From contig CAZQSY010000001.1 of NCBI GenBank assembly GCA_964596395.1, forward strand, positions 108,091-172,090: a stretch of DNA of 64,000 bases, given 5' to 3'. Position 1 is the stretch's first letter; every line of letters begins with the position of its first letter. Source of the stretch: an uncultured Candidatus Saccharibacteria bacterium. GTDB taxonomy: Bacteria > Patescibacteriota > Minisyncoccia > Phycocordibacterales > UBA9973. The translations under genes and the position numbers were made by a program. The notes beneath the pieces were generated by a model, which searched no databases, was not told where the DNA came from, and saw only the letters and a list, made by a program, of their open reading frames with translations. Below, in pieces: positions 9,873 to 52,007 of this stretch.

Positions 9873-11354
9873 TTATTCTTTCCTGAGAAAAAGCGGGGTT
9901 TCTGGTTTTTTGTTTTCTTTGATAAGGTTTTTAATTTTTTCCGATGTCTCCGGCAGAAACGGTAAAAGCTCATCTGCTATAGCGGAGATACCCAAAACCA
10001 ATTCTTTTATCATTCCCTTTCCTTTTTCTTCGTCCATTTTTATAACCTTGAAGGGTTCTTCTACTTGGATTTTTTTGTCTAAATTCTGCACCTGGTTCCA
10101 AATGTGCTCCATCGCTTTCTGCAAATCAAACTTTTCAAAATGTTCAGAAAATTCTTCCGGCAATTCTACTGAATTTACAGGCAAGGCCTGTAAATATTTT
10201 CCCGAGAGAGTCAAAACCCGTGAAACCAAATTCCCCAACCCATTCGCCAAGCCCGAATTGTACGCGTCTTTGAACCGCTCCAAGGTAAACGGACTGTCTT
10301 CGAAACTGCTGACTTCCTTCAGCAAAAAATACCGCAGGGCGTCCGTACCGTATTCTTTTACGATGTCCCTCGGGTCAACACCATTACCCAATGTTTTTGA
10401 CATCCTGATTCCACCCTCGCCTGTAATGAAACCGTTAACGACAATCTGGCGCGAATTCGGCAAGCCCGCCGCCATGAGCATCGCCTGCCACATCGCCCCT
10501 TGAAAACGGGTATTGTCTTTGCCGCAGTATTGCGTCGGATTGCCGTTCACCCAATATTTTTCAAAATTGCCGCTAGAACTCTCATCGGGCCCGCCTGCAA
10601 CGCTATGCGTAGCATTGCGGGCAGGCCAGCCAAGGGTAGAAATATAATTCGTCAGCGCGTCAAACCACACATACATCACATGCTCCGAGTCGCCCGGCAC
10701 AGGAACGCCCCAGGGCATTTTCGTTCTAAGGCGGGAAATTGAAAAATCCTGAAGCCCGGCTCTGACGAAGCTTTTGAGTTCGTTGAAGCGAAAATCTGGC
10801 ACGACGAAATCTGGATTCTTTTCATAGAATTGCAGAAGTTTCTCTTGAAACGCAGAATACTTGAAAAAATAATTTTCTTCTTTGATTGTCTCTAATTTTT
10901 TACCGGGATGCACCGGGCATTCGCCGTTTTCATCTAATTCCGATTCGGTTTTCTCGCTTTCACAACCCACGCAGTATTTTGTTTCGTAATCCTTTTTGTA
11001 TATATACCCGTTCTTCTCGACTCTCTGCCAAAATTCCTGCGCCGCCGCCTCATGCGGTTTATCGGTGGTGCGCACGAAATGCACATCCTCGCTTACTCCA
11101 AACATTTTGAGCTGTTCTTTAAATGTCTCGAACCCGCGGTCTACAAATTCCTGCGGCGGCAAGCCGGCTTCTTTCGCCTTTTCATAAATTTTCATCCCAT
11201 GCTCGTCGGTGCCGGTATTAAAGTACACGTCATAGCCAGAAAGTTTTTTGTAGCGGGCAATCGCGTCTGCCCGCACGAATTCAAGCGCGTGCCCCATGTG
11301 AAGCGGCGCGTTGACGTAGGGCAAAGTGGTTGTAATATAAAAACTTTTTATCAC
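9873..11354 (-). CDS. metG: Methionyl-tRNA synthetase
   Basis: HMGH (HIGH-type) motif, KMSKT motif (IRMSKTLGNGVDP), zinc knuckle CVGCESEK...CPVHPGK. Confidence 0.95.
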   Translation of the reverse strand: MIKSFYITTTLPYVNAPLHMGHALEFVRADAIARYKKLSGYDVYFNTGTDEHGMKIYEKAKEAGLPPQEFVDRGFETFKEQLKMFGVSEDVHFVRTTDKPHEAAAQEFWQRVEKNGYIYKKDYETKYCVGCESEKTESELDENGECPVHPGKKLETIKEENYFFKYSAFQEKLLQFYEKNPDFVVPDFRFNELKSFVRAGLQDFSISRLRTKMPWGVPVPGDSEHVMYVWFDALTNYISTLGWPARNATHSVAGGPDESSSGNFEKYWVNGNPTQYCGKDNTRFQGAMWQAMLMAAGLPNSRQIVVNGFITGEGGIRMSKTLGNGVDPRDIVKEYGTDALRYFLLKEVSSFEDSPFTLERFKDAYNSGLANGLGNLVSRVLTLSGKYLQALPVNSVELPEEFSEHFEKFDLQKAMEHIWNQVQNLDKKIQVEEPFKVIKMDEEKGKGMIKELVLGISAIADELLPFLPETSEKIKNLIKENKKPETPLFLRKE

Positions 11355-26517: not shown

Positions 26518-26550
26518 ATTTCTGACCGATTGTTATGTTTTTCAAATTGG

Positions 26551-26578
26551 GACATTCTCTGCCATGGCAGAATTTGTC
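26551..26578. promoter_or_regulatory. Composite palindrome gacattc-TCTGCCATGGCAGA-atttgtc upstream of PaaX-like regulator gene 1
   Basis: 14-bp perfect palindrome 26559-26572 with partially complementary flanks; lies in the divergent promoter region between the ligT-like gene and 26609..27088. Confidence 0.45.
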
Positions 26579-26608
26579 CTATTGTTGCTTTTTGGCTATA
26601 ATCAAACT

Positions 26609-27088
26609 ATGCCCATCGCAAGCGAAATACTAAAAGAACTGTGGAACACAGAGCTAAAATGCAAAGGAGCACCTGTGAACATTTTTGGCATTCCACGTTT
26701 TGGGAAATACCCTGTCGGGAGCATCCGAAGAACTATAGACCGTTTGAAGGAAAGAGGTGTGTTGGAAAAAGAATTAGGTGGGATTGTACTATCAAGACAC
26801 GGAATAAAATACGCGAGAAAAAAAATTGATTCACTGAAACAGTTTGAAAAACCGAAAGGGATTTCAAAAGAGAGAACTCTGCTTCTGATGTTTGATATAC
26901 CCACGGGAAAGAAAGGAGAAAGGGAGTGGTTGCGGTGGCACTTGAAAAAATTCAATTACACGATGGTTCAGAAAAGCGTCTGGGTTGGGCCATGGCCGTT
27001 ACCGAAAGATTTCAAGGAGTATTTGGCAAAAATAAAGCTGGACAAACACATTAAAATTTTCAAACTGGCCAAATCGTATGTAAAATGA
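26609..27088 (+). CDS. Small PaaX-like regulator (N-terminal wHTH-like region + C-terminal Cas2-fold-like/PaaX_C-like region), paralog 1
   Basis: Start set at MPIASEILKELW by alignment to paralog 34384..34866; shared motifs PVNIFGIPRF, MFDIPTGKKGEREWLRWHLKKFNYTMVQKSVWVGPWPLPKDF; C-terminal pattern resembles the PaaX C-terminal domain. Confidence 0.55.
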   Translation: MPIASEILKELWNTELKCKGAPVNIFGIPRFGKYPVGSIRRTIDRLKERGVLEKELGGIVLSRHGIKYARKKIDSLKQFEKPKGISKERTLLLMFDIPTGKKGEREWLRWHLKKFNYTMVQKSVWVGPWPLPKDFKEYLAKIKLDKHIKIFKLAKSYVK

Positions 27089-27118
27089 GACACTTTCTGC
27101 CATAGCAGAAAGTGTCTC
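27087..27118 (+). terminator. 14-bp perfect stem / 4-nt loop hairpin gagacactttctgc-cata-gcagaaagtgtctc followed by a U-run; related in sequence to the 26551-26578 palindrome
   Basis: Arms are exact reverse complements; starts at the stop codon of 26609..27088; followed by gtgtatttttta. Confidence 0.6.
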
Positions 27119-33807: not shown

Positions 33808-34281
33808 TTAATCTTTTTGTTTTCCAGAGATTTTATCGCGTTTTTTATCTCTGACACATCTTCTATAATTATGTATGTCTGACATGGAATCAACAAATGG
33901 GTGAATCCAGTCTTCTACCAACTTGCCACAGAAAAGCAGGTTTGGCCTTCTATGATAACTGTCTTTAGGTAAAACAGTTATCACTGGTTTCCTGAAATAT
34001 TTCGCTATCACAAACTCCATAGCGGTACCGGCACCAATACCGCGGTCTTTTTCCTCAGCGTTTACTATGATCAAGTCGTTTTGTCTAATATGCAAGCAAT
34101 CCGCACCAAAAACAAGTTTTGGATTTCCTTCTAAGGAATTAAGGTAAAAATTATTCGGGTCAAACAGCTCAAAGTCGCCAGAAATTTTGGAAATCACTTC
34201 GGAATATCTTTTACGCCAGTCTACTAGCTTTTTGGCTTCATTGTCTCCCTTCGGCACCGAACCTGCCAGATAAATTTTCAT
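33808..34281 (-). CDS. Nucleoside 2-deoxyribosyltransferase-like (LOG/YtoQ-like Rossmann) protein
   Basis: MKIYLAGS start and GADCLHIRQNDLIIVN...GAGTAMEFVIAKYFRKPVITV pattern of the nucleoside deoxyribosyltransferase-like superfamily. Confidence 0.5.
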   Translation of the reverse strand: MKIYLAGSVPKGDNEAKKLVDWRKRYSEVISKISGDFELFDPNNFYLNSLEGNPKLVFGADCLHIRQNDLIIVNAEEKDRGIGAGTAMEFVIAKYFRKPVITVLPKDSYHRRPNLLFCGKLVEDWIHPFVDSMSDIHNYRRCVRDKKRDKISGKQKD

Positions 34282-34316
34282 GCTCGCGATTATAGCAAAA
34301 AAACATCACGTACGCC

Positions 34317-34358
34317 AACGTCAATATACTCTGCGATAGCAGAAAAAATTGACACTGA
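34317..34358. promoter_or_regulatory. 42-bp composite palindrome aacgtcaat-atac-tctgcgatagcaga-aaaa-attgacact upstream of PaaX-like regulator gene 2
   Basis: Outer IR gtcaat/attgac enclosing inner tctgc-gata-gcaga; direct repeat of 34869-34910. Confidence 0.4.
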
Positions 34359-34383
34359 TAAGAACAAAGAATATAATACAAAC

Positions 34384-34866
34384 ATGTCTCTCGCACGAGA
34401 AATTATAAAAGAACTCTTAAAACCTACCCTGAATTATAAAGGTATGCCAGTGAATATATTTGGCATACCGAGATTCAGGAAACATTCCTTTGGTTCACTT
34501 AGAACAACTGTCTGGGAAATGAAAAGAAAAGGATTGATAGAAAAGCGAGGAAGCGGGTGGTATTCCACACCCGCTGGGAAAAAATTCGTGCAGAGGAAAT
34601 ACGAGTCACTCGAACAATTCTCAAATAGCTTTGCGAAAGGCACGCCAAAAAACCTTTTAGTTATGTACGATATACCTGAATATAAAAAAGCAGAAAGAGA
34701 ATGGTTTCGCTGGCATTTGAAAAAATTCGGCTATCTGATGATTCAAAGAAGTGTATGGATTGGTCCTTCTCCTTTGCCGAAAGATTTTTTAGACTACGTG
34801 GAAAAAATAAAACTGAAAAGAAACATAAAAACTTTTAGGCTGGCAAAACCGTATAAGGCAAAATAA
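34384..34866 (+). CDS. Small PaaX-like regulator, paralog 2
   Basis: 160 aa; clear paralog of 26609..27088 (MPVNIFGIPRF, LLVMYDIPEYKKAEREWFRWHLKKFGYLMIQRSVWIGPSPLPKDF). Confidence 0.55.
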   Translation: MSLAREIIKELLKPTLNYKGMPVNIFGIPRFRKHSFGSLRTTVWEMKRKGLIEKRGSGWYSTPAGKKFVQRKYESLEQFSNSFAKGTPKNLLVMYDIPEYKKAEREWFRWHLKKFGYLMIQRSVWIGPSPLPKDFLDYVEKIKLKRNIKTFRLAKPYKAK

Positions 34867-34868
34867 AC

Positions 34869-34910
34869 AAACGTCAATGAATCTTGCTATCGCGTAAAAT
34901 ATTGACACTC
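34869..34910. repeat. 42-bp composite palindrome aacgtcaat-gaa-tcttgctatcgcg-taaaat-attgacact downstream of regulator gene 2
   Basis: Same outer IR gtcaat/attgac as 34317-34358; inner part is a degenerate, inverted version of gcgatagca. Confidence 0.4.
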
Positions 34911-45165: not shown

Positions 45166-48100
45166 TTTTCTATAAACACCGGTTTCTTGCCGCCGGTAGA
45201 TACGTACACCCACAATTCGTCGGGGGCCTGGCCGCCTGGGCCGGTGCAGGTGATTGAATATTTCGTGCTGCGCGAAGGCCCCGGGCTGACTAAAACACTT
45301 CCCTCAGTATCGCCGCCGGTCGTAATCGCGCCACCTTCGTAAATAATATTAGAGCAAGACGTGGTGTTGGTAGATGTCCATTCCAGAGTAAACGGCTCGC
45401 CAGAAGATATCGGGTTCTTTGAATCCGCCGAAAGCGAAAGGTTAGCGTTCGGAGAAGCCACTGTATCTGTGCAGATGCTCCCGTTCCAGAAAGTTGCAGA
45501 CGCGCAGTCAGCGAAAGCGGTAGCGCGAGCGAGCTCAATCCCGTCATTGTACAAGAAAAAAGTCCTCGGGCTTGAATCGTATGGAACCGGCAAACCTACG
45601 TTGTTCCCGAAATTTCCGGCCATAACAGTAGTTTTTGCTTCTGGATAGTTTGAGGTTATTGCCGAGTCCCCTGCCGGGTTTATGGTGGTCCAATCAAAGT
45701 GAACATCACAGCTACTGTTGCCCGAAAGTATCTCGCAAGGGCTGTCTAGGGGGGTCAAACTTCCAGTCGGAGCTTCGCCGCAAGCCGGCGCCTGGCAGGA
45801 TTGCGTGGGACTTCCTACACAATCAGCCCCGCCGTTGGCTGGAGCAGGGTTGGTGCATGTGCGTGTCTGCACGCCGGACTCTCCGCACATTGTCGCGCTA
45901 CAGGCGCCCCACTGCGACCATCCGCCGTCCACCGGGTCGCTGGTCACGGTCACATCCACCCATGCGCCGCAGTTATTGTTTTCGTTCGACTCGGTCACGA
46001 CGCCGGTAAAGGTCGGGTCATTGTCGGCGCAGGCGCGAACCGAATATGTGCCTGGAGCGATAAAGGTGTACGAGGGAGAGAAAGTTGTGTTATTTCCTCC
46101 GGCGGAAAGCGCTGGCATCAGGGTTGCGTTCAGCGATTCTATCGTGCCGAAACCGCCGGTACTTGAAGCCACCTGGAAAAAGTTCGGGAACGAAGTCGGG
46201 GTCGCGGCAGTGCCGGAGTTTGAGATGGTAGCCGAGAAAGTTACAGCTTCATTCGCGTTGACTTCTGTCGGCGAAGAACTGGAAGCAGTCAGTTCGGGTA
46301 AGGACGCGCCCGGGGTGGCAAAAGTGGCATCCGGAGAGTAGCCGGTGAGTCCCGCCGAGTTCGTGGCGTAACCTCGGTAGTAGTATACTGTTCCACCCGA
46401 CAAGCCGGTCCTTACGTGGGAATAGGCGACATTTACAGAAATACCGCCTTCGGCGCTGCAGTTTGAAGAAGGATTCGGCGCTGTTCCGAGACACGTGCCG
46501 CGGGCGGTGATAGTCGCCGGGATTCCGGCTGAAGTTACAGTCGCTCCGAGTGTCGCCTTATAGGTAGAACCGTCGAGAGAGATGTCCGACGAAGTGGGGC
46601 TCGCGACGGTCGGCGGGGTATTCCCCGAAGCGGCGAAGGTCGCGCTGAATGTCTGGTTTGAAGTTATGTTTGTGAAGGTGTAAGAAGTCGCGCTGGTAGT
46701 AGTCGGAGTACCGTTTACTATGTGCGAGGCAACTACATATCCGTTGCTTGGAGTGAGAGTAAGAGTAGTTGAATTCGTACCGTAAATCACCGAAGTGGTC
46801 CCCGCCGGAGAGATAGTTCCGTTTAACGCCTGAGTAACGGCGATAGTCGGTTTTGCTCTGCACTGCCCGCTTACCCAATCGCTGCCGGAAGCACACGTCG
46901 CAGTGGCGCTGCTTTGGTCGAGCAACACACCGTTGTTGTACAGATAAAATGTTTTTGTCCCGTCAGATATTTGATAATTAAGGGGCGATGTGTTGTTTCT
47001 AGAATCCGCCACCACTATTTGTGGCGGAGTAGTCACTTGAGAATAACTTGCAGGATTGTTTACGCTCCAGGAAATACTCGAGTTACAGGCGCTGGAACCT
47101 ATCGGAATAGTACAATCGGTAGAGGAGACATTGCCCGACATTTGCCCGGCTATCGCCGAGAAAGAAGCAGTAACCGTACAAGCCGAAGTTACCGGACCCG
47201 TGGTGTAAATACTTCCCGCAAGTGAGCCGCCGCAGCCGGTAACAGTATTTATCTCATAACCGCTGTTCGGAGAAATGGTGAAAGAACCAGTGGAATTGTA
47301 GTTCACATTCCTGGAAGACGGGGTGATGGTCCCGCCGACCCCTCCACTAACTGAAGTGCCGACCGTGTATGAATTTAGAGAGAACGAAGCAGATACGTTG
47401 CACCCCGAAGTAATCGCACCAGTCGTATAAGTCGTACCCGAAAGCGAGCCGTTGCAACCGGAAGCGGAAGCGGTGTAACCGGCAGTCGGGGTAACAGTAA
47501 ATGTTGTGGTAAGGCCATGATTCACTGTCCTAGTTGAAGGAGTAATTGAACCGCCGGCCCCACTACCACTTGAGGTTACCGTGTACGAATTTTGCGAGAA
47601 AGTCGCGCTAACTGTACAGTTCGCGGTAATAGAGTTTGTCGTGTAAATATTTCCGGCAAGAGATCCGCCGCAGGTGCCGCCGACCGAAGCGGTGTAGCCG
47701 GTATTCGGAGTAACGGTGAAGGAAGTGTTGTCGCCCGATGCTACGGTTTGAGCAGTATTTGGAGATATGGAACCACCAGCGCCGGCGCTGGGAGTAACTG
47801 TATAGGTATTAGAAGCCACGGTAATATTCTTCCAGGGACCGCAGTTGTTGCTCTCGTTTGATTCAGTGATGGTGCCAGCGTTTGACGAACTGGTCTTGTC
47901 AGCACAAACGCGGATGGAATACGTGCCAGCCGGGCTGAAAGTAATTGATGGGGAGGTAGCCGTATCCATTCCCCCGGCGGTAACCGCAGGCATGGTACCG
48001 CTTGGCGTTCTGTCGGCGGGTGTCCCGCACCCGCCTCCCGTATTGCATGTCTGGAAAAAATAACTGAACGAAGCGCCGGTCGAAGCATTGCCACCGTTGG

Positions 48101-51100
48101 AAATAACAGCGGTGTAAGTCCTGGCGACACCGGTGGTGGCGGCTGAAGGGCTCGCAAGGCCAGCAGTCAAGTCGGGTAAGGGTTTGTCTTCGGAACAAGA
48201 GGCGCTGCTCCCGCCGTTTGAACCCGCGCAGGTCCATGTCCAGGCGGTTGCTCCGTTCACGTTGCTGGTACTGGTACCCGAAGAACAATTGTAGTGAGCG
48301 GGGGCGCAGGAGCCATTGACCGGAGACACGACGGATGAGAATGAAGCTGTTACGGTACAGTTTGAATTTATTGAACCGGTCGTATAAGTGTAGTTCGGAG
48401 CAGTACCCGAAAGCGAGCCGCTGCAGCCAGAGGCGGAAGCGGTGTAGCCGGAGTTTGAAGTCACGGTGAAGGTAGTGGTAGTACCCGCGTTAACCACTAC
48501 CGAACTCGGGGTTATATTCCCATTCGGAGAACCGTTATCTGTGGCTGTCACGGTATAAGTCACAGCAGTTGTCCCACAAACACTTCCGTTCCAAGTGGTA
48601 CCAGCAGAACAAGAAGTCGTGGCCGTAGCAGAATCCAACTCTTGCCCGTTGTTGTATAGATAGAAAGTTCTTGAGCCGTAGTGTACCGAATATGTCGCCG
48701 AACCAGAGTTTCCCGAGCCCACAGTTATATTTGTCGGAGTGGTTACCGCCGAAGTTGAAACCGGATTGGTCGTACTCCAGCTTATGCTTGAACTACAACT
48801 ACTTTGTCCGGATGGAATCGTGCAATTCGAAGCGCTGATTGTTCCAGACATACCGCCGGCCGAAGCCGCAAACGTTGCCGTCACGCTTTTAGCCGAGTTC
48901 ATGGTGAAACTGCAAGTTCCGGTGCCGGTACACGCGCCCGACCAGCCAGAGAATGTATAACCGGAAGAAGGAGCAGCGGTGAGAGAGACGCTAGTACCGC
49001 TGCTTACGTTTGCAGAACAAGTAGTGCCACAATTTATGCCGTTGCCGGTTACGGTGCCGCTGCCGGATTTAGTTACAGAAAGAATGTATGTTGTCGGACT
49101 AAACGTCGCCGTCACGCTTTTGTTTGCGTTCATAGTGAAACTGCAAGTTCCGGTGCCGGTGCAGGCACCCGACCAGCCAGAGAATGTATAACCAGAAGAA
49201 GGAGTAGCGGCGAGAGAAACGTTTGCTCCAGTTATGATATTAACCGTACAGGGGTAAGAACTGCAACCAGACAGAATGTTGCCAGCAGAACCAGACGCGG
49301 TACCGCTCAGAGTGCCGCTGCCGCTTTTGTTTACCGTAAGCGCGCTAGTTTGAACTGAATTGAAAGTAAACGTCACCGTGCAGTTTGTGGTTATGGCGTT
49401 CGTCGTGTAAGTGGTACCGTTTAATGTTCCCCCACAAGTGCCGCCGACCGAAGCGGTGTAGCCCGAGTTGGGGATAACATTAAAGGAAATAATCCCGCCG
49501 TGCGAAACATAATAATTATCCCCCGAAGAAGACCAAGTAGAAGTCTGTTGAGATACACTCCCATTCGCGCCAGCGGTAACCGTAACACTATGGAAAAAGA
49601 AAGCTATAAGCGAGCAATTTTGGGTGATGGGCTCGGTTGTGTAAATAACTGAACCGCTCCCCAGAACTTCGACCTGGCTACCACACCCTGAAACCGCACC
49701 TAGATAGCCGGAATTCGCCGTTACGGTGAAAGTAGTAGTCTGACCGGATTGCACAGTTCTGAATGAGGGAGTGATAGACCCACCGGAACCATCTACCGAG
49801 GCAGACACAGTATAGCTAGGTGTTGTTTGGCTAAACGTAGCTGAAACGGTACAATTCGCGGTTATCACATTTGTAGTGTAAGTAGTGCCACTTAAAGTTC
49901 CCCCGCAAGTACCACCCACCGAAGATATATATCCAGAATTCGGTGACACGGTGAAAGACATGGTATACCCGTAGGTTATTGATTGGGAAGTGCTCGGAGA
50001 AATTGAACCGCCGGAGCCAGCGCTCGGCGTCACCGTCAAGACCGCTTTGTTGAATGTCGCAGTAACACTCTTGTTTGAATTCATAACGAAACTGCATACA
50101 GAACTCGCTCCAGTGCAAGCGCCCGACCAGCCCGAGAAAGTAGAACCAGTTGAGGGTGTGGCAACCAAATCAATGAGATCATTTGGATAAAAACTCGCGG
50201 AACATGTGGTCCCACAGCTGATACCGCTCGGAGAAGAGGTAATTGTTCCTGAACCAGTACCAGCTTTACTTACGGTCAGAGTGTACGGGGCTAAGCTGAA
50301 CGTCGCCGTCACGCTTTTGTTTGAATTCATGGTGAAATTGCAGGTTCCTGTGCCAGTGCAGGCGCCCGACCAATTCGAGAATACATAGCCCGCAGACGGG
50401 CTCGCGGTGAGGGACACACTCGCACCGCTTGAAACATTAACTGTGCATGGGTATGAAGAGCAGCCGGAGAGAATGTTGCCGGCAGTGCCGGAGGCAGTGC
50501 CGGATATAGTGCCACTGCCGGTCTTGCTGACAGTGAGAGCGTAGTTCTGATAAGAAGTTGTAAAAGAAACATCAGAACCATAGCTTGTGCCCGCTCCGTT
50601 TGTGGCATACGCGCGCACATGATACGTAGTACCCTGAGAAAGACCGGTGATATAACTTATCCATGGACTGCTCGCGCTACTTGTTCCATCGGCAGTTTTG
50701 CCTAGATAAGAAGAAACCGTAGGATTTGAAGAAAGCCCCCACACTATTCCGCTTGCTGAAATGGGTGAGCCATTCACGGATGTGATTTGTCCCCCACTCT
50801 GTGCGGAAGTTGGAGATATGTTTGAAACGTTGCTGGTCGTAACTGTCGGCGCCTCGGCCGGGGTCACAAATGAGGAAGTGGAAGAGTACCCCGTGAGATA
50901 GGCCGAGTTGGTGGCATATCCCTTGAAATAATAAGTTGTGCCCGGATTTAGATTTGTCAAAGAAAGAGAAAAAGGGTTAGTGGAAGAACCAGACAAGCAG
51001 GTGTTTAAACTAGAAGAAGAAGTTCCGTAACAAAAACCTCTGCTGTTTATAGTAGAAGGACTACCGAAATTTGATATGGTGTCAGACAAAGTTACACTTC

Positions 51101-52007
51101 GCGAAGCCAGATTGGAATAAGAAGGGTTGGCGAGTGTGGGAGCGGTGTTGTTCTGCGCGTAGCTTATGCTCACCGTGCAGTTGCCGGTAACCGCACCTGT
51201 GGTATATGTATAGGAAGAACTTTGCGATGAAGTAGGGCTCCCGCTGCATCCCGAAGCCGAAGCGGTATAGCCTGATGCCGGAGCTATGACGAAAGAAGTG
51301 TTAGAACCATGCGTAACATTTTTAGAAACAGAGTTTGAGGTGGAACCGTCTATTGTGCCGTTTGCAGAGTTGTCTGTTGCCGTAACAACGTAAGAGTTCA
51401 GGGCAAACGTCGCCGTCACGCTTTTGGCCGAGTTCATGGTGAAACTGCATGTTCCGGTGCCGGTGCAAGCGCCCGACCAACCAGAGAATGTCGACCCGAA
51501 ACTCGGAGAAGCACTAAGGGTAACGCTGGTACCGCTAGAATAACTTGCGCTGCAGGTGGCCCCGCAGGAGATTCCCGCCGGAGTCGAAGTAATCGTACCT
51601 GCGCCCGTGCCTGCTTTGCCCACCGTTAAAGCATAGCTTGATGCCACAGTTACGGTCACCGACTTAGAGACATCGTACATTTCACCCTGAGCATTTACAC
51701 AATAAAGGGTGTAAGTAGCGGTGGACGAAGGAGAAACACTCTGACTTCCGATGATATGTGTTGTCGCGTCGGGGTAAATGATGCCGGAGAAGCCGCTGCC
51801 TCCGGTGCTGCTTTTATAACACTCCACGGCATCATAAACAATCCAACTTAAAGTGGAAGAGCCGCCGGGCTGTATAGTAGTCGGGGAAGCGGTAAAATCT
51901 ATGCTCGTCGCCGGTCCGACAGCTGAAACAATGTTTTGTTTTAAAGCCGCAAAAAACAAAAACGCGGCTAGAACCGAAGCGAGGGTGAGAAAAATTTTCT
52001 TGAACAT
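45162..52007 (-). CDS. Giant secreted surface protein (2281 aa): InlB-B-repeat (GW-SGAC-TG-C-FTMN-N-SVTATF) modules, Ig-like repeats, one thrombospondin type-1-like module
   Basis: Signal peptide MFKKIFLTLASVLAAFLFFAAL; at least 8 copies of the G(Y/S)(T/V)FSGWSGACTG(T/A)GTCxFTMNSNKSVTATF motif; DGGWSQWGACSATMCGESGVQTRTCTNPAPANGGADC at about 45775-45930; Ser/Thr/Gly-rich; first gene of the pilB-pilC-pilin operon; extended -10 TGTATAAT on the minus strand at about 52077-52090. Confidence 0.85.
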   Translation of the reverse strand: MFKKIFLTLASVLAAFLFFAALKQNIVSAVGPATSIDFTASPTTIQPGGSSTLSWIVYDAVECYKSSTGGSGFSGIIYPDATTHIIGSQSVSPSSTATYTLYCVNAQGEMYDVSKSVTVTVASSYALTVGKAGTGAGTITSTPAGISCGATCSASYSSGTSVTLSASPSFGSTFSGWSGACTGTGTCSFTMNSAKSVTATFALNSYVVTATDNSANGTIDGSTSNSVSKNVTHGSNTSFVIAPASGYTASASGCSGSPTSSQSSSYTYTTGAVTGNCTVSISYAQNNTAPTLANPSYSNLASRSVTLSDTISNFGSPSTINSRGFCYGTSSSSLNTCLSGSSTNPFSLSLTNLNPGTTYYFKGYATNSAYLTGYSSTSSFVTPAEAPTVTTSNVSNISPTSAQSGGQITSVNGSPISASGIVWGLSSNPTVSSYLGKTADGTSSASSPWISYITGLSQGTTYHVRAYATNGAGTSYGSDVSFTTSYQNYALTVSKTGSGTISGTASGTAGNILSGCSSYPCTVNVSSGASVSLTASPSAGYVFSNWSGACTGTGTCNFTMNSNKSVTATFSLAPYTLTVSKAGTGSGTITSSPSGISCGTTCSASFYPNDLIDLVATPSTGSTFSGWSGACTGASSVCSFVMNSNKSVTATFNKAVLTVTPSAGSGGSISPSTSQSITYGYTMSFTVSPNSGYISSVGGTCGGTLSGTTYTTNVITANCTVSATFSQTTPSYTVSASVDGSGGSITPSFRTVQSGQTTTFTVTANSGYLGAVSGCGSQVEVLGSGSVIYTTEPITQNCSLIAFFFHSVTVTAGANGSVSQQTSTWSSSGDNYYVSHGGIISFNVIPNSGYTASVGGTCGGTLNGTTYTTNAITTNCTVTFTFNSVQTSALTVNKSGSGTLSGTASGSAGNILSGCSSYPCTVNIITGANVSLAATPSSGYTFSGWSGACTGTGTCSFTMNANKSVTATFSPTTYILSVTKSGSGTVTGNGINCGTTCSANVSSGTSVSLTAAPSSGYTFSGWSGACTGTGTCSFTMNSAKSVTATFAASAGGMSGTISASNCTIPSGQSSCSSSISWSTTNPVSTSAVTTPTNITVGSGNSGSATYSVHYGSRTFYLYNNGQELDSATATTSCSAGTTWNGSVCGTTAVTYTVTATDNGSPNGNITPSSVVVNAGTTTTFTVTSNSGYTASASGCSGSLSGTAPNYTYTTGSINSNCTVTASFSSVVSPVNGSCAPAHYNCSSGTSTSNVNGATAWTWTCAGSNGGSSASCSEDKPLPDLTAGLASPSAATTGVARTYTAVISNGGNASTGASFSYFFQTCNTGGGCGTPADRTPSGTMPAVTAGGMDTATSPSITFSPAGTYSIRVCADKTSSSNAGTITESNESNNCGPWKNITVASNTYTVTPSAGAGGSISPNTAQTVASGDNTSFTVTPNTGYTASVGGTCGGSLAGNIYTTNSITANCTVSATFSQNSYTVTSSGSGAGGSITPSTRTVNHGLTTTFTVTPTAGYTASASGCNGSLSGTTYTTGAITSGCNVSASFSLNSYTVGTSVSGGVGGTITPSSRNVNYNSTGSFTISPNSGYEINTVTGCGGSLAGSIYTTGPVTSACTVTASFSAIAGQMSGNVSSTDCTIPIGSSACNSSISWSVNNPASYSQVTTPPQIVVADSRNNTSPLNYQISDGTKTFYLYNNGVLLDQSSATATCASGSDWVSGQCRAKPTIAVTQALNGTISPAGTTSVIYGTNSTTLTLTPSNGYVVASHIVNGTPTTTSATSYTFTNITSNQTFSATFAASGNTPPTVASPTSSDISLDGSTYKATLGATVTSAGIPATITARGTCLGTAPNPSSNCSAEGGISVNVAYSHVRTGLSGGTVYYYRGYATNSAGLTGYSPDATFATPGASLPELTASSSSPTEVNANEAVTFSATISNSGTAATPTSFPNFFQVASSTGGFGTIESLNATLMPALSAGGNNTTFSPSYTFIAPGTYSVRACADNDPTFTGVVTESNENNNCGAWVDVTVTSDPVDGGWSQWGACSATMCGESGVQTRTCTNPAPANGGADCVGSPTQSCQAPACGEAPTGSLTPLDSPCEILSGNSSCDVHFDWTTINPAGDSAITSNYPEAKTTVMAGNFGNNVGLPVPYDSSPRTFFLYNDGIELARATAFADCASATFWNGSICTDTVASPNANLSLSADSKNPISSGEPFTLEWTSTNTTSCSNIIYEGGAITTGGDTEGSVLVSPGPSRSTKYSITCTGPGGQAPDELWVYVSTGGKKPVFIEN

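What the first reader, a model, noticed from the sequence alone, without database searches (positions are those of the whole stretch)
34317..34910. Paralog 2 of the PaaX-like regulator is flanked by 42-bp direct repeats whose palindrome has co-varied
Gene 34384..34866 is a paralog of 26609..27088. It is flanked by aacgtcaat-atactctgcgatagcagaaaaa-attgacact (34317-34358) and aacgtcaat-gaatcttgctatcgcgtaaaat-attgacact (34869-34910). Each has an outer IR gtcaat/attgac around an inner tctgc-gata-gcaga-type palindrome, which is the gene-1 motif TCTGC-catg-GCAGA with a different centre. Paralog-specific palindromes that track their protein are the signature of co-evolving regulator/operator pairs. 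The bracketing by direct repeats also resembles cassette boundaries.
Basis: seen in the sequence. Interest (0 to 1): 0.6.

Follow-up and report, generated by a model that had tools for sequence, protein, structure and literature searches.

The report
Regulator gene framed by its palindromes
A small DNA-binding protein of ultra-small (Patescibacteria) bacteria is framed on both sides by a 34-40 bp palindrome that matches its own DNA-reading helix, and the same palindromes turn up elsewhere in related genomes, even inserted in frame inside housekeeping genes.

Summary
The repeats are real: 40 nt (not 42) at 34317-34356 and 34870-34909, with 9 identical bases at each end. Paralog 1 (26609-27088) is framed the same way.

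This is family-wide. In 74 of 78 homologous loci, a bipartite palindrome lies before and after the gene. Its form is variable arms, then ACA-WWY-TCTGC-N4-GCAGA-RWW-TGT, then variable arms.
- The core is constant across the family.
- The outer arms are symmetric and gene-specific. They match between the two copies of a gene.
- The arms covary with the recognition helix of the N-terminal winged helix, not with the conserved Cas2-like C-terminal domain.

The upstream copy supplies the -35 box of a leaderless promoter, which implies autorepression as in PaaX. The downstream copy has no promoter and, for this gene, is not a terminator, so it is probably a second binding site.

Unexpectedly, the palindromes are not confined to these genes. 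They also bracket neighbouring genes and occur as about 36-bp in-frame insertions in TsaD, RsmI, MiaA and other genes.

The system also resembles REP/RAYT and Rickettsia palindromic elements, built around an unrelated wHTH-Cas2-fold protein. I found no description of it in the searchable literature.

The parts
34317..34356 (.). Upstream copy of the paralog-2 palindrome. Outer arms are GTCAAT/ATTGAC (34320-34353) and the intact core is TCTGC-GATA-GCAGA (34330-34343). Proposed autoregulatory operator.
   Evidence: It overlaps the -35 box of the gene's promoter. Relatives have the same layout.
34349..34377 (+). Promoter of paralog 2: TTGACA-17-TATAAT, 12 of 12 consensus matches. The -35 box is the right arm of the palindrome. 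The ATG lies 6 nt after the -10 box, so the mRNA is leaderless or nearly so.
   Evidence: Across the family, the -10 box sits at a fixed offset of +32 from the dyad of the upstream copy in 24 of 54 strong cases.
34289..34318 (-). Divergent promoter-like site, TTGGCG-18-TATAAT with a TG before the -10 box, for gene 33808-34281 (weak Nuc_deoxyrib_tr match). Its -35 box abuts the left edge of the palindrome.
   Evidence: Consensus match only.
34384..34866 (+). Paralog 2, 160 aa. It has an N-terminal winged helix (recognition helix at residues 36-48, wing at 52-61) and a C-terminal Cas2-like beta-alpha-beta-beta-alpha-beta domain (89-152). The Cas2 signature YDI...IQRS is retained.
34870..34909 (.). 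Downstream copy of the paralog-2 palindrome. Outer arms are identical to the upstream copy. The core is degenerate (CTTGC-TATC-GCGTA) and the centre is inverted. It starts 4 nt after the stop codon.
   Evidence: It is weak as an RNA hairpin (-8.5 kcal/mol) and no terminator or promoter was called there. The core is intact in close relatives.
26544..26579 (.). Upstream copy of the paralog-1 palindrome, GGACATTCTCTGCCATGGCAGAATTTGTCC (26550-26579).
26574..26602 (+). Promoter of paralog 1, TTGTCC-17-TATAAT. The -35 box is the right arm of the palindrome. The ATG at 26609 lies 6 nt after the -10 box.
26609..27088 (+). Paralog 1, 159 aa, 52% identical to paralog 2. It belongs to a different subfamily, marked by the wing motif 'GIVLS' and the helix 'SIRRTIDRLK'.
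27082..27118 (.). Downstream copy of the paralog-1 palindrome, GAGACACTTTCTGC-CATA-GCAGAAAGTGTCTC, a perfect 14-bp stem. The TGA stop codon lies in its left edge. A T-run follows, so it is terminator-like on both strands.
   Evidence: RNA fold -26.3 kcal/mol, z = -7.7. Terminator scan.

Best explanation
The two 40-nt repeats are two copies of the cognate binding site of the protein encoded between them. That protein is a 160-aa 'mini-PaaX': a winged-helix DNA-binding domain fused to a Cas2-fold domain.

Proposed binding mode. A dimer, held together by the Cas2-like domain as in PaaX, places its two recognition helices on the outer arms. For paralog 2 the arms are GTCAAT and ATTGAC, separated by 22 bp. 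For paralog 1 they are GACA(C)/TGTC. The family-constant core TCTGC-N4-GCAGA lies under the highly conserved Cas2-like part.

Upstream copy. It supplies the -35 box of the gene's own leaderless promoter. A bound protein would block RNA polymerase, giving autorepression.

Downstream copy. It begins at or just after the stop codon and is a second binding site, kept matched to the protein by selection. The most likely roles are cooperative looping with the promoter site, or a protein roadblock that insulates this small transcription unit. In some genes, such as paralog 1, it also forms a terminator-like hairpin.

Wider context. This is one instance of a family-wide partnership in Patescibacteria (Nomurabacteria/Paceibacterota). 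Genomes carry several such paralogs, each with its own arm specificity. The same palindromes also occur at the ends of other genes and as about 36-bp in-frame insertions in housekeeping genes. They therefore behave like a small dispersed, REP-like element family that co-evolves with its binding protein.

Shown here: the repeat anatomy, its universality in the family, arm/helix covariation, promoter overlap, dispersed and in-frame copies.
Inferred: actual binding, dimer geometry, repression, and the role of the 3' copy.
For: Universality. Of 78 testable homologous loci, 74 carry the palindrome both upstream and downstream. The dyad lies 35-47 nt before the ATG upstream and typically 14-45 nt after the stop downstream.

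Architecture.
- Core pairs match the consensus at about 90%.
- Pairs 6-8 are AT-rich but not symmetric (0.35-0.6).
- Pairs 9-15 differ between loci but are symmetric (0.73-0.99).

Up/down matching. Outer arms are 81% identical within a locus against 45% between loci. A gene's own downstream copy is the best match among 74 in 45 cases. Orthologs in the same synteny group have different arms that changed together in both copies.

Protein-DNA covariation.
- The recognition helix (residues 36-49) gives rho 0.41, Mantel 0/999, and partial correlations of 0.35-0.40.
- The Cas2-like domain gives rho 0.08.
- The highest mutual-information residues are 45, 37, 41 and 40.
- Helix motif classes map to arm classes.
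- Paralogs within one genome have different arms, for example L008, L048 and L072.

Promoter. Paralog 2 has TTGACA-17-TATAAT overlapping the right arm, and paralog 1 has TTGTCC-17-TATAAT. The -10 box sits at a fixed +32 offset for upstream copies only.

No RNA-level signal. Arm mismatches are G:T 30 against A:C 25, so there is no strand bias. The paralog-2 downstream hairpin is only -8.5 kcal/mol.

Other targets.
- Third copies with the same arms bracket a neighbouring gene in L016, L041, L072 and L167.
- A 580-aa Cys-rich protein has TGCTACA-class palindromes at its 5' and/or 3' end in four contigs.
- In-frame insertions occur in TsaD (+12 aa against 7 orthologs), RsmI (+11 aa against 5hw4), and in MiaA, a reverse transcriptase, an aminoacyl-tRNA synthetase, an alanine-racemase-like ORF and a formyltransferase-like ORF (identified by sequence inspection only).
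Against: - Nothing here shows binding, repression or looping. All of it is comparative sequence inference.
- The covariation is confounded by phylogeny, and partial correlations only reduce that.
- The downstream copy is dispensable in some lineages. It is absent in L011 and L014, decayed in L205, and has a degenerate core in this very gene.
- A pure repressor does not explain how 36-bp palindromes come to be inserted in frame in unrelated genes.
- It also does not explain why the Cas2-like domain keeps the Cas2 YDI/IQRS signature and is 72-75% conserved.
- Up/down matching could partly reflect gene conversion rather than selection.
- In some loci the downstream copy has arms of another class or hybrid arms (L074/L150, L070).
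- In this 64-kb window no target other than the four flanking sites was found.
Confidence: 0.6

Rival explanations
1. REP/RAYT-like system. The wHTH-Cas2-fold protein is, or was, a nuclease that mobilises the palindromes. The two flanking copies are the ends of an ancestral autonomous element, now immobile and vertically inherited, like RAYT genes flanked by their own REP sequences. Autoregulation would be a by-product of the protein binding its own ends.
For: The defining RAYT curiosities (PMC3337134) are paralleled here:
- a short gene of about 500 bp;
- flanking by palindromes;
- each paralog tied to its own palindrome type;
- several different paralogs per genome, each single-copy;
- stable synteny.

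The palindromes are dispersed. Of 35 canonical low-GC sites at least 650 nt from contig ends, 10 flank a family gene, 13 are in frame inside ORFs and 12 are intergenic. The in-frame copies are true insertions of 11-12 codons.

The Cas2-like domain keeps the Cas2 Asp signature and is the most conserved part of the protein. The module is inverted relative to its neighbours in L002, L051 and L068.
Against: - There is no HUH/Y1 transposase or any known transposase fold, and no nuclease activity has been shown.
- Copy numbers look low. This window has 0 extra sites in 64 kb, and the genome loci have 7 extra sites in 536 kb.
- No identical or near-identical copy sets that would indicate recent transposition were seen.
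- No relatives were found on viral contigs.
- The outer arms are read by a dsDNA-type winged helix, and the spacer positions do not pair. That argues against a hairpin substrate of the IS200/REP type.
Confidence: 0.2
2. The downstream copy is simply a transcription terminator or mRNA-stabilising hairpin. Its resemblance to the upstream operator reflects common descent or gene conversion, not protein binding.
For: - Paralog 1's downstream copy is a perfect 14-bp stem (-26.3 kcal/mol) followed by a T-run, and it is called terminator-like on both strands.
- Downstream copies start at or just after the stop codon.
- Many sites are flanked by A-runs and T-runs.
- Solo intergenic copies lie between co-directional genes.
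- The downstream centre has an orientation bias, TATC 33 against GATA 12.
Against: - The paralog-2 downstream copy folds to only -8.5 kcal/mol and lacks a T-tract, and no terminator was called.
- Pairs 6-8 are not complementary in either copy.
- There is no G:U-over-A:C bias on the sense strand.
- Arms co-diverge with the upstream copy and with the recognition helix across orthologs. A terminator has no reason to do this.
- The same palindromes occur inside coding regions.
Confidence: 0.1
3. The palindromes are recombination sites that bound gene cassettes, in the manner of integron attC sites. The regulator gene is one such cassette, captured, inverted or excised by an unidentified recombinase.
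For: - Arrays of the form [palindrome]-gene-[palindrome]-regulator-[palindrome] occur with non-conserved inserted genes in L016, L041, L072 and L167.
- The module is inverted within otherwise conserved synteny.
- Different paralogs occupy adjacent intergenic sites of one syntenic block (L039 against L042/L062; L071 against L077).
- A solo palindrome lies where a regulator sits in other genomes, upstream of dTMP kinase in L128.
Against: - No integrase or recombinase is nearby in the window or in the loci.
- Each paralog group has long-term stable synteny.
- Integron cassettes carry different attC sites at their two sides, whereas here the two sides match each other and match the encoded protein.
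- Arm covariation with a DNA-binding helix points to the encoded protein, not to an external recombinase.
Confidence: 0.07
4. Chance similarity, or a generic intergenic repeat with no relation to the gene.
For: Palindromes of this type do occur away from family genes.
Against: - The two exact GTCAAT-N22-ATTGAC matches in 64 kb both flank the gene.
- 74 of 78 homologous loci show the same arrangement.
- Arm specificity is per gene, not per genome.
Confidence: 0.01

Closest known systems
PaaX repressor of E. coli / Pseudomonas and its operators
   Same: - An operator made of two short inverted hexamers far apart: TGATTC-N27-GAATCA for PaaX, GTCAAT-N22-ATTGAC here.
- Autorepression by occluding RNA polymerase at its own promoter (PMC9493321).
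   Different: - The protein is half the size, 160 aa against about 305-316 aa, and lacks the PaaX C-terminal helical domain.
- It scores far below the PaaX equivalog cut-off: 18.7 bits against 264.55.
- No paa genes are nearby.
- There is an extra conserved inner core, TCTGC-N4-GCAGA.
- A second copy lies at the 3' end of the gene.
- Genomes carry several paralogs with different specificities, and the sites are dispersed, some of them in frame inside genes.
REP sequences and their RAYT genes (REP-associated tyrosine transposases)
   Same: - A gene of about 500 bp flanked by palindromes of 20-40 bp.
- Each paralog is tied to its own palindrome type.
- Several distinct single-copy paralogs per genome.
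- The same palindromes are dispersed elsewhere.
- Protein and repeat appear to co-evolve (PMC3337134; here).
   Different: - The protein is unrelated: wHTH plus Cas2 fold, with no HUH or catalytic Tyr motifs.
- Recognition looks like dsDNA binding by a dimer, not ssDNA hairpins.
- Dispersed copy numbers appear much lower.
- Many copies lie inside ORFs rather than outside genes.
- Mobilisation by the protein is untested.
Rickettsia palindromic elements (RPEs)
   Same: Palindromic elements inserted in frame in unrelated housekeeping genes, adding a conserved peptide (PMC10969869). Here the peptide is T-N-S-A-(M/I)-A-E-(F/N)-V in TsaD, RsmI, MiaA, an aminoacyl-tRNA synthetase, a reverse transcriptase, an alanine-racemase-like ORF and a formyltransferase-like ORF.
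   Different: - About 36 bp rather than about 150 bp.
- A different phylum.
- They are linked to a specific DNA-binding protein family whose genes they flank. As far as I know, no such partner is described for RPEs.
CRISPR-associated Cas2
   Same: The C-terminal domain has the Cas2 ferredoxin-like fold and the YD(I/V)...IQRS signature. It passes the NCBIfam cas2 cut-off, 30 bits against 24.5. This is why public records name these proteins Cas2.
   Different: - An N-terminal winged helix is fused to it.
- There is no cas1, no CRISPR array and no repeated 18-mer array in the window.
- The neighbours are housekeeping genes.
- The 'Cas2' annotation is a misnomer for this family.
Auxiliary or distal operators used for looping (LacI O1/O2, lambda CI OR/OL)
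   Same: A repressor gene or operon with one operator at the promoter and a second matching operator a few hundred bp away. Here the copies are 540-565 bp apart centre to centre. This comparison rests on textbook knowledge.
   Different: Tetramerisation or looping is not shown here. The second site sits precisely at the stop codon and is found in nearly every member of a large paralogous family.

Membership tests
PaaX family repressor (TIGR02277 / Pfam PaaX + PaaX_M + PaaX_C) | Central Cas2-like domain (PF20803 PaaX_M) | tested here: met
   50.9 and 48.2 bits against a cut-off of 24.
PaaX family repressor (TIGR02277 / Pfam PaaX + PaaX_M + PaaX_C) | N-terminal PaaX-type winged helix (PF07848) | tested here: inconclusive
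   AlphaFold2 shows a winged helix. The sequence matches are only weak: PF07848 at E=0.2 in P0094, and CggR_N at 25.8-27.2 bits, below its cut-off of 30.
PaaX family repressor (TIGR02277 / Pfam PaaX + PaaX_M + PaaX_C) | C-terminal helical domain and full-length equivalog score; association with paa genes | tested here: not met
   The protein ends at residue 160, right after the Cas2-like domain. TIGR02277 scores 18.7 bits against a cut-off of 264.55. The neighbours are RNase H, RecJ, ComEC, NUDIX and dTMP kinase.
PaaX family repressor (TIGR02277 / Pfam PaaX + PaaX_M + PaaX_C) | Operator of two widely spaced inverted hexamers overlapping its own promoter | tested here: met
   GTCAAT-N22-ATTGAC overlaps the -35 box. 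The PaaX operator is TGATTC-N27-GAATCA. Binding itself was not tested.
CRISPR-associated Cas2 | Cas2 fold and sequence signature | tested here: met
   [not shown]
CRISPR-associated Cas2 | Encoded next to cas1 and a CRISPR array | tested here: not met
   No cas genes among the annotated neighbours. No repeated 18-mer arrays in the window. Synteny in 80 loci shows housekeeping genes only.
REP / RAYT system | Gene flanked by palindromic repeats of its own type, with distinct single-copy paralogs per genome | tested here: met
REP / RAYT system | Protein is an IS200/IS605-like HUH Y1 transposase | tested here: not met
   Pfam, NCBIfam and the fold searches give wHTH plus Cas2-like only.
REP / RAYT system | Same palindromes highly repeated across the genome (tens to hundreds of copies) | tested here: inconclusive
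   Dispersed copies exist. However, only 7 extra sites were found in 536 kb of loci and none in this 64-kb window. No complete genome could be scanned.
Rickettsia-palindromic-element-like in-frame insertions | Palindromic element inserted in frame in unrelated protein-coding genes, as an insertion relative to orthologs | tested here: met
   TsaD +12 aa. RsmI +11 aa against 5hw4. All intragenic copies use the same reading frame.
Intrinsic (rho-independent) terminator | GC-rich stem-loop directly followed by a U-tract | tested here: not met
   Not met for the paralog-2 downstream copy: -8.5 kcal/mol and none called. The paralog-1 downstream copy does meet the scan criteria.
Integron gene cassette / attC | Adjacent tyrosine-recombinase integrase and attI, with cassettes carrying differing attC sites | tested here: not met
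   No integrase in the neighbourhoods. The two flanking sites match each other and the encoded protein.

The most novel reading that the evidence does not exclude
The wHTH-Cas2-fold proteins are the working partners of a previously undescribed class of miniature mobile palindromes in Patescibacteria. This would be a REP/RAYT-like system built on a Cas2-fold nuclease instead of an HUH transposase.

The winged helix reads the arms of the palindrome. The Cas2-like dimer sits over, and cuts or nicks at, the conserved TCTGC-N4-GCAGA core. This would allow about 36-bp palindromes to be copied into new sites, including in frame into genes, and would allow the framed gene module to invert.

It would be the first sequence-specific DNA-targeting role for a stand-alone Cas2-fold protein. 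It would also be a possible relative of the ancestor that tied Cas2 to roughly 30-36-bp palindromic repeats.
Probability: 0.15. Interest if true: 0.9.

Novelty: new variant of a known kind. Interest (0 to 1): 0.75.

Why it matters
Patescibacteria have very small genomes and few recognisable regulators. This family is routinely mis-annotated as 'Cas2' or 'PaaX', occurs in several copies per genome, and here comes with its DNA sites already identified.

- **A recognition code.** The arm/helix covariation gives a ready-made natural code for a winged helix. There are at least ten helix-motif and arm classes, which could be tested or used as orthogonal repressor/operator pairs.
- **An unusual regulatory layout.** Nearly every family member has a matched site at both ends of the gene. 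This raises a concrete question about 3'-end operators: looping, roadblock or insulation in very compact genomes.
- **A second REP/RAYT-like case.** The same palindromes are dispersed and inserted in frame in essential genes, while co-evolving with a protein whose gene they flank. That parallels the REP/RAYT relationship, but with an unrelated protein fold, and it adds an RPE-like phenomenon outside Rickettsia.
- **A question about Cas2.** If the Cas2-fold domain turns out to act on the palindromes, it bears on where Cas2 and its link to palindromic repeats came from.

Tried and rejected
- **Downstream copy as a promoter or operator for the next gene.** Rejected as a general rule. No -10 box lies at the fixed +32 offset that upstream copies show. 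For both window genes the downstream neighbour is convergent.
- **RNA hairpin selection.** Arm mismatches show no G:U-over-A:C bias, pairs 6-8 do not pair, and the paralog-2 downstream hairpin is weak.
- **A conserved partner or target gene shared by all paralogs.** None exists. At least 8 synteny groups have unrelated housekeeping neighbours.
- **Phage or plasmid origin.** No relatives in the viral contig collection. The anti-phage defence library (PADLOC) gives only Cas2 models.
- **Genuine CRISPR Cas2.** No array and no cas1.
- **Other sites in the window.** A site HMM finds only the four flanking copies. There is also a weak partial match at 9973-9989 inside the MetRS gene (E=0.15), which I regard as unproven.
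Centre classes are shared by different helix classes. The orientation of asymmetric centres between the two copies is mixed, 19 same against 28 inverted.
- **A decayed element in L068 at the synthetase site occupied in L051.** The DNA there is simply unrelated, so this says nothing either way.
- **Literature.** No paper in the library links PaaX with Cas2, or palindromic elements with CPR/Patescibacteria.
- **Not possible here.** Dimer or DNA-complex modelling, and whole-genome scans of a single genome, could not be done with these tools.
Full report
**1. The observation**

Gene 34384-34866 (+, 160 aa) and gene 26609-27088 (+, 159 aa) are paralogs, 52% identical with E=1e-57.

The first gene is flanked by a direct repeat of 40 nt, not 42. 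The copies lie at 34317-34356 and 34870-34909 and share 30/40 bases, with 9 identical bases at each end. Each copy contains the outer inverted repeat GTCAAT-N22-ATTGAC. That pattern occurs exactly twice in the 64-kb window, both times here.

The upstream copy has the intact inner palindrome TCTGC-GATA-GCAGA. The downstream copy has a degenerate one, CTTGC-TATC-GCGTA, with the centre inverted.

Its copies are 26544-26578 and 27082-27116 (35 nt, 80% identical). They read GGACATTCTCTGCCATGGCAGAATTTGTCC and GAGACACTTTCTGCCATAGCAGAAAGTGTCTC. Exact TCTGC-N4-GCAGA occurs three times in the window, all at these two genes. A profile built from family sites finds nothing else convincing in the window.

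**2. The protein**

- Pfam gives PaaX_M, the 'PaaX central Cas2-like domain' (1.8e-13), and a borderline CRISPR_Cas2 match.
- NCBIfam's cas2 model is passed, 30 bits against 24.5. The PaaX equivalog is missed by far, 18.7 bits against 264.55.
- AlphaFold2 on a 117-sequence alignment (pLDDT 82.6) gives an N-terminal winged helix, with helix 36-48 followed by a beta wing at 52-61. The C-terminal part, 89-152, is a beta-alpha-beta-beta-alpha-beta domain.
- The Cas2 signature is retained: LLVMYDIPE...IQRSVW aligns with LLVVYDVSD...IQRSAF of the Cas2 protein SSO8090.
- There is no cas1 or CRISPR array. The neighbours are RNase H, RecJ, ComEC, NUDIX hydrolases, dTMP kinase and PGK.

The family is common in Patescibacteria (Nomurabacteria/Paceibacterota MAGs), where records name it 'Cas2' or 'PaaX'. 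It has 242 clusters at 50% identity with E<=1e-10. Its members are mini-PaaX proteins: a winged helix plus a Cas2-like domain, without the PaaX C-terminal domain.

**3. The framing is a property of the whole family**

I fetched 80 homologous loci from one-genome-per-species contigs and anchored on the core motif. Of the 78 loci (including the two window genes) with enough flanking sequence, 74 have a palindrome both before and after the gene. Of the four excluded loci, L011 and L014 truly lack the downstream copy, while L036 and L071 do have flanking palindromes that my core-anchoring step missed.

The consensus is nnnn-ACA-WWY-TCTGC-N4-GCAGA-RWW-TGT-nnnn. Three layers can be distinguished:
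- The core (pairs 1-5) has the same sequence everywhere, about 90% match.
- Pairs 6-8 are AT-rich but not symmetric (0.35-0.6).
- Pairs 9-15, the outer arms, differ between loci but are symmetric (0.73-0.99).

The two copies of one gene share arms at 81% identity, against 45% for copies from different loci. A gene's own downstream copy is the best match among 74 in 45 cases.

The upstream dyad lies 35-47 nt before the ATG. The downstream dyad typically lies 14-45 nt after the stop, and in P1-type genes the TGA stop is part of the arm TGACACA. Centre-to-centre spacing is 540-565 bp.

Three close relatives of paralog 2 (66-77% identity) have the same arms, GTCAATA/TATTGAC. All have GATA upstream and TATC downstream, with an intact downstream core. 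The degenerate downstream core in this window is therefore a lineage-specific decay.

**4. Which part tracks the protein**

Sorting the proteins by N-terminal domain lines up helix motifs with arm classes:

| Helix motif | Arm class |
|---|---|
| SLSGT.S | TACTTA.A |
| SLRGTMS | TGTTA.A |
| SLKSGIS | GGTA(G/C).A |
| S(I/V)RTTIDRLK | TGACACA |
| R(A/G)TID | TGCTACA |
| Q(I/V)TIA | G(G/A)(C/A)AACA |
| Y(N/I)TIS | CTATACA |
| SFANAIS | GACTCACCA |

In numbers:
- Arm identity correlates best with the recognition helix, residues 36-49. Rho is 0.41, with 0 of 999 Mantel permutations reaching it. The partial correlation is 0.40 given the Cas2-like domain and 0.35 given the rest of the N-domain.
- The correlation with the Cas2-like domain is hardly present, rho 0.08.
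- The top mutual-information residues are 45, 37, 41 and 40.

The N-domain is 47% identical on average, and the Cas2-like domain 72-75%. Paralogs within one genome have different arms, for example L008, L048 and L072 of one MAG. Specificity is therefore per gene, not per genome.

The 4-nt centre (GATA/TATC, CATG, ACCT/AGGT, TATA, CTAT) follows the protein only loosely. Its orientation between the two copies is mixed, 19 same against 28 inverted.

**5. What the two copies do**

*Upstream copy.* Paralog 2 has a perfect TTGACA-17-TATAAT at 34349-34377, and its -35 box is the right arm of the palindrome. The ATG follows the -10 box by 6 nt, so the mRNA is leaderless. A divergent TTGGCG-18-TATAAT abuts the left edge. 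Paralog 1 has TTGTCC-17-TATAAT at 26574-26602. Across the family, the -10 box lies at a fixed +32 from the dyad of upstream copies, in 24 of 54 strong matches.

This is the geometry of autorepression by promoter occlusion. E. coli PaaX does the same at its own promoter, with an operator of two hexamers far apart, TGATTC-N27-GAATCA (PMC9493321).

*Downstream copy.*
- It has no -10 box at that offset.
- For paralog 2 it is a poor hairpin, -8.5 kcal/mol, and no terminator was called.
- For paralog 1 it is a strong hairpin, -26.3 kcal/mol, followed by a T-run.
- Both copies show the same constraint pattern, and arm mismatches show no sense-strand G:U bias, 30 G:T against 25 A:C.
- Orthologs that stay in the same synteny have arms that changed in parallel in both copies.

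I therefore read the downstream copy as a second binding site of the same protein. Looping or roadblock is inference. The copy can be lost: it is absent in L011 and L014 and decayed in L205 and in this gene.

**6. Genomic context**

There are at least 8 orthologous groups, each in its own stable housekeeping neighbourhood:
- P2 group: ComEC, RNase H, [gene], RecJ.
- P1 group: dTMP kinase, [gene], NUDIX.
- Other groups lie next to a UvrD-like helicase with TrhO and PheS, next to TsaD with GDH and GlmU, or next to IleRS with a HAD hydrolase and RecO.

No partner gene is shared, so the module is self-contained.

The module is inverted relative to the same neighbours in L002 (P2 group) and in L051 and L068 (P1 group). 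Two flanking palindromes are also inverted repeats of each other, so this is unsurprising. Both palindromes can supply a -35 box, so the gene keeps a promoter in either orientation.

A more distant 181-192-aa subfamily (L042 3566-4111, L039 4888-5466) has a different, single operator between its -35 and -10 boxes and no 3' copy.

**7. The palindromes are not confined to these genes**

*Extra copies near the regulator.* Extra copies with the regulator's own arms bracket a neighbouring, non-conserved gene in L016, L041, L072 and L167. The layout is [palindrome]-gene-[palindrome]-regulator-[palindrome].

*Metagenome scan.* I searched for ACA-N3-TCTGC-N4-GCAGA-N3-TGT. Of the 36 sites at least 650 nt from a contig end:

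| Location | Sites |
|---|---|
| Flanking a family gene | 10 |
| Inside an ORF, in frame | 13 |
| Intergenic, no family gene nearby | 12 |
| High-GC contig, probably a chance match | 1 |

*In-frame copies.* The intragenic copies all read T-N-S-A-(M/I)-A-E-(F/N)-V. They lie in MiaA (5 contigs), a reverse transcriptase (3), RsmI (2), an aminoacyl-tRNA synthetase (2), TsaD, an alanine-racemase-like ORF and a formyltransferase-like ORF, the last two identified by sequence inspection only.

They are true insertions. TsaD of L060 has 12 extra residues where 7 orthologs have a gap. The RsmI-like protein has 11 extra residues relative to E. coli RsmI 5hw4. Copies at the same position in orthologous proteins carry different but still symmetric arms. 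This implies either continued selection or continued homogenisation.

*Intergenic solo copies.* These sit between co-directional genes, often next to the same genes that neighbour regulators elsewhere: dTMP kinase, RecJ/PGK and the UvrD-like helicase. A 580-aa Cys-rich protein without Pfam domains carries TGCTACA-class palindromes at its 5' and/or 3' end in four contigs.

*Copy numbers.* They appear low: 7 extra sites in 536 kb of genome loci, and none in this window.

**8. Comparison with known systems**

- **PaaX.** It works like a PaaX-type autorepressor, but it is not a PaaX ortholog. It has no C-terminal domain and no paa genes, and it falls far below the equivalog cut-off.
- **Cas2.** It has a Cas2 fold but is not a CRISPR Cas2.
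- **REP/RAYT.** The gene-plus-palindrome relationship reproduces the 'curiosities' of RAYT genes and REP sequences (PMC3337134): a short gene flanked by its own palindromes, one palindrome type per paralog, several distinct single-copy paralogs, vertical inheritance and dispersed copies. It does so with an unrelated protein and what looks like dsDNA recognition.
- **RPEs.** The in-frame insertions parallel Rickettsia palindromic elements (PMC10969869), but at about 36 bp rather than about 150 bp.
- **Literature.** I found no paper in the library linking these.

**9. Verdict**

The regulator/operator reading is largely right once the covarying part is corrected to the outer arms. The finding generalises to a family-wide system that appears undescribed.

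The mechanism I commit to (confidence 0.6): a cognate dimer binds both copies, autorepresses at the upstream copy, and uses the 3' copy as an auxiliary site for looping or as a roadblock. This sits within a dispersed, co-evolving family of REP-like palindromes.

The main rival (0.2) is that the Cas2-fold domain is an active nuclease that mobilises the palindromes. Binding, repression, looping and any catalysis remain untested.

Noticed in passing
window 34371-34386, 26596-26611, 34281-34295: Both paralogs and the divergent gene 33808-34281 have a TATAAT box only 6-7 nt before the ATG and no Shine-Dalgarno sequence. This suggests leaderless mRNAs. The same spacing is seen in most of the 80 homologous loci.
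   Followed up: partly
window 9973-9989: A partial core motif, TCTGCTATAGCGGA, lies inside the methionyl-tRNA synthetase gene (9873-11354, minus strand). It reads G-I-S-A-I-A-D-E, which resembles the peptide of the in-frame palindromes. The site-HMM E-value is only 0.15 and the arms are not symmetric. It could be a decayed relic or chance.
   Followed up: partly
L060 2479-2512; L051 5160-5193; L138, L175, L087, L140, L192, L193, L199, L109, L151, L157, L131, L155, L171: Palindromes of this family are inserted in frame (peptide TNSA(M/I)AE(F/N)V) in TsaD, an aminoacyl-tRNA synthetase, RsmI, MiaA, a reverse transcriptase, an alanine-racemase-like ORF and a formyltransferase-like ORF. Orthologous positions carry different symmetric arms.
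   Followed up: partly
L002 3001-3483; L051 and L068 3001-3483: The palindrome-gene-palindrome module is inverted relative to the same conserved neighbours: RecJ/RNase H/ComEC in one group, dTMP kinase/NUDIX in the other. At least two independent inversions are implied.
   Followed up: partly
L016 1116-1150 and 1161-2900; L098 2418; L118 3108; L180 449: A protein of about 580 aa, Cys-rich (many CxxC) and without any Pfam domain, repeatedly carries TGCTACA-class palindromes at its start and/or just after its stop. This holds with or without a regulator gene next to it.
   Followed up: partly
L070 downstream copy; L074 / L150 downstream copy (L150 14416): Some downstream copies have hybrid arms, GCTACA on the left and TGTGTCA on the right. 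Others have arms of a different class from the upstream copy (CTATACA upstream, GCTACCA downstream).
   Followed up: no
L042 3566-4111 (-), L039 4888-5466 (-): A more distant 181-192-aa subfamily of the same wHTH-Cas2-like architecture has a different single operator, ACAAGTATTT-N10-AAATACTTGT, between TTGACA and TATAAT. It has no downstream copy of its own. In L042 it lies convergent to a core-family gene.
   Followed up: partly
74 loci, downstream copies: The asymmetric centre is biased in the downstream copy (TATC 33 against GATA 12) but not in the upstream copy (24 against 21). Symmetric versions (TATA, GATC) are rare. This is unexplained.
   Followed up: no
public records of P0005, P0024, P0051, P0073, P0086, P0088 and others: Members of this family are annotated 'CRISPR-associated endonuclease Cas2' because they pass the TIGR01573 cut-off. 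There is no CRISPR context, so the name is misleading.
   Followed up: yes
window 47434-51427: Several 18-mers are repeated within a region of about 4 kb (47434/48403, 47674/49438, 48892/51427, 48937/49168, 49101/51405). This suggests a gene or genes with internal repeats. It is unrelated to the finding.
   Followed up: no
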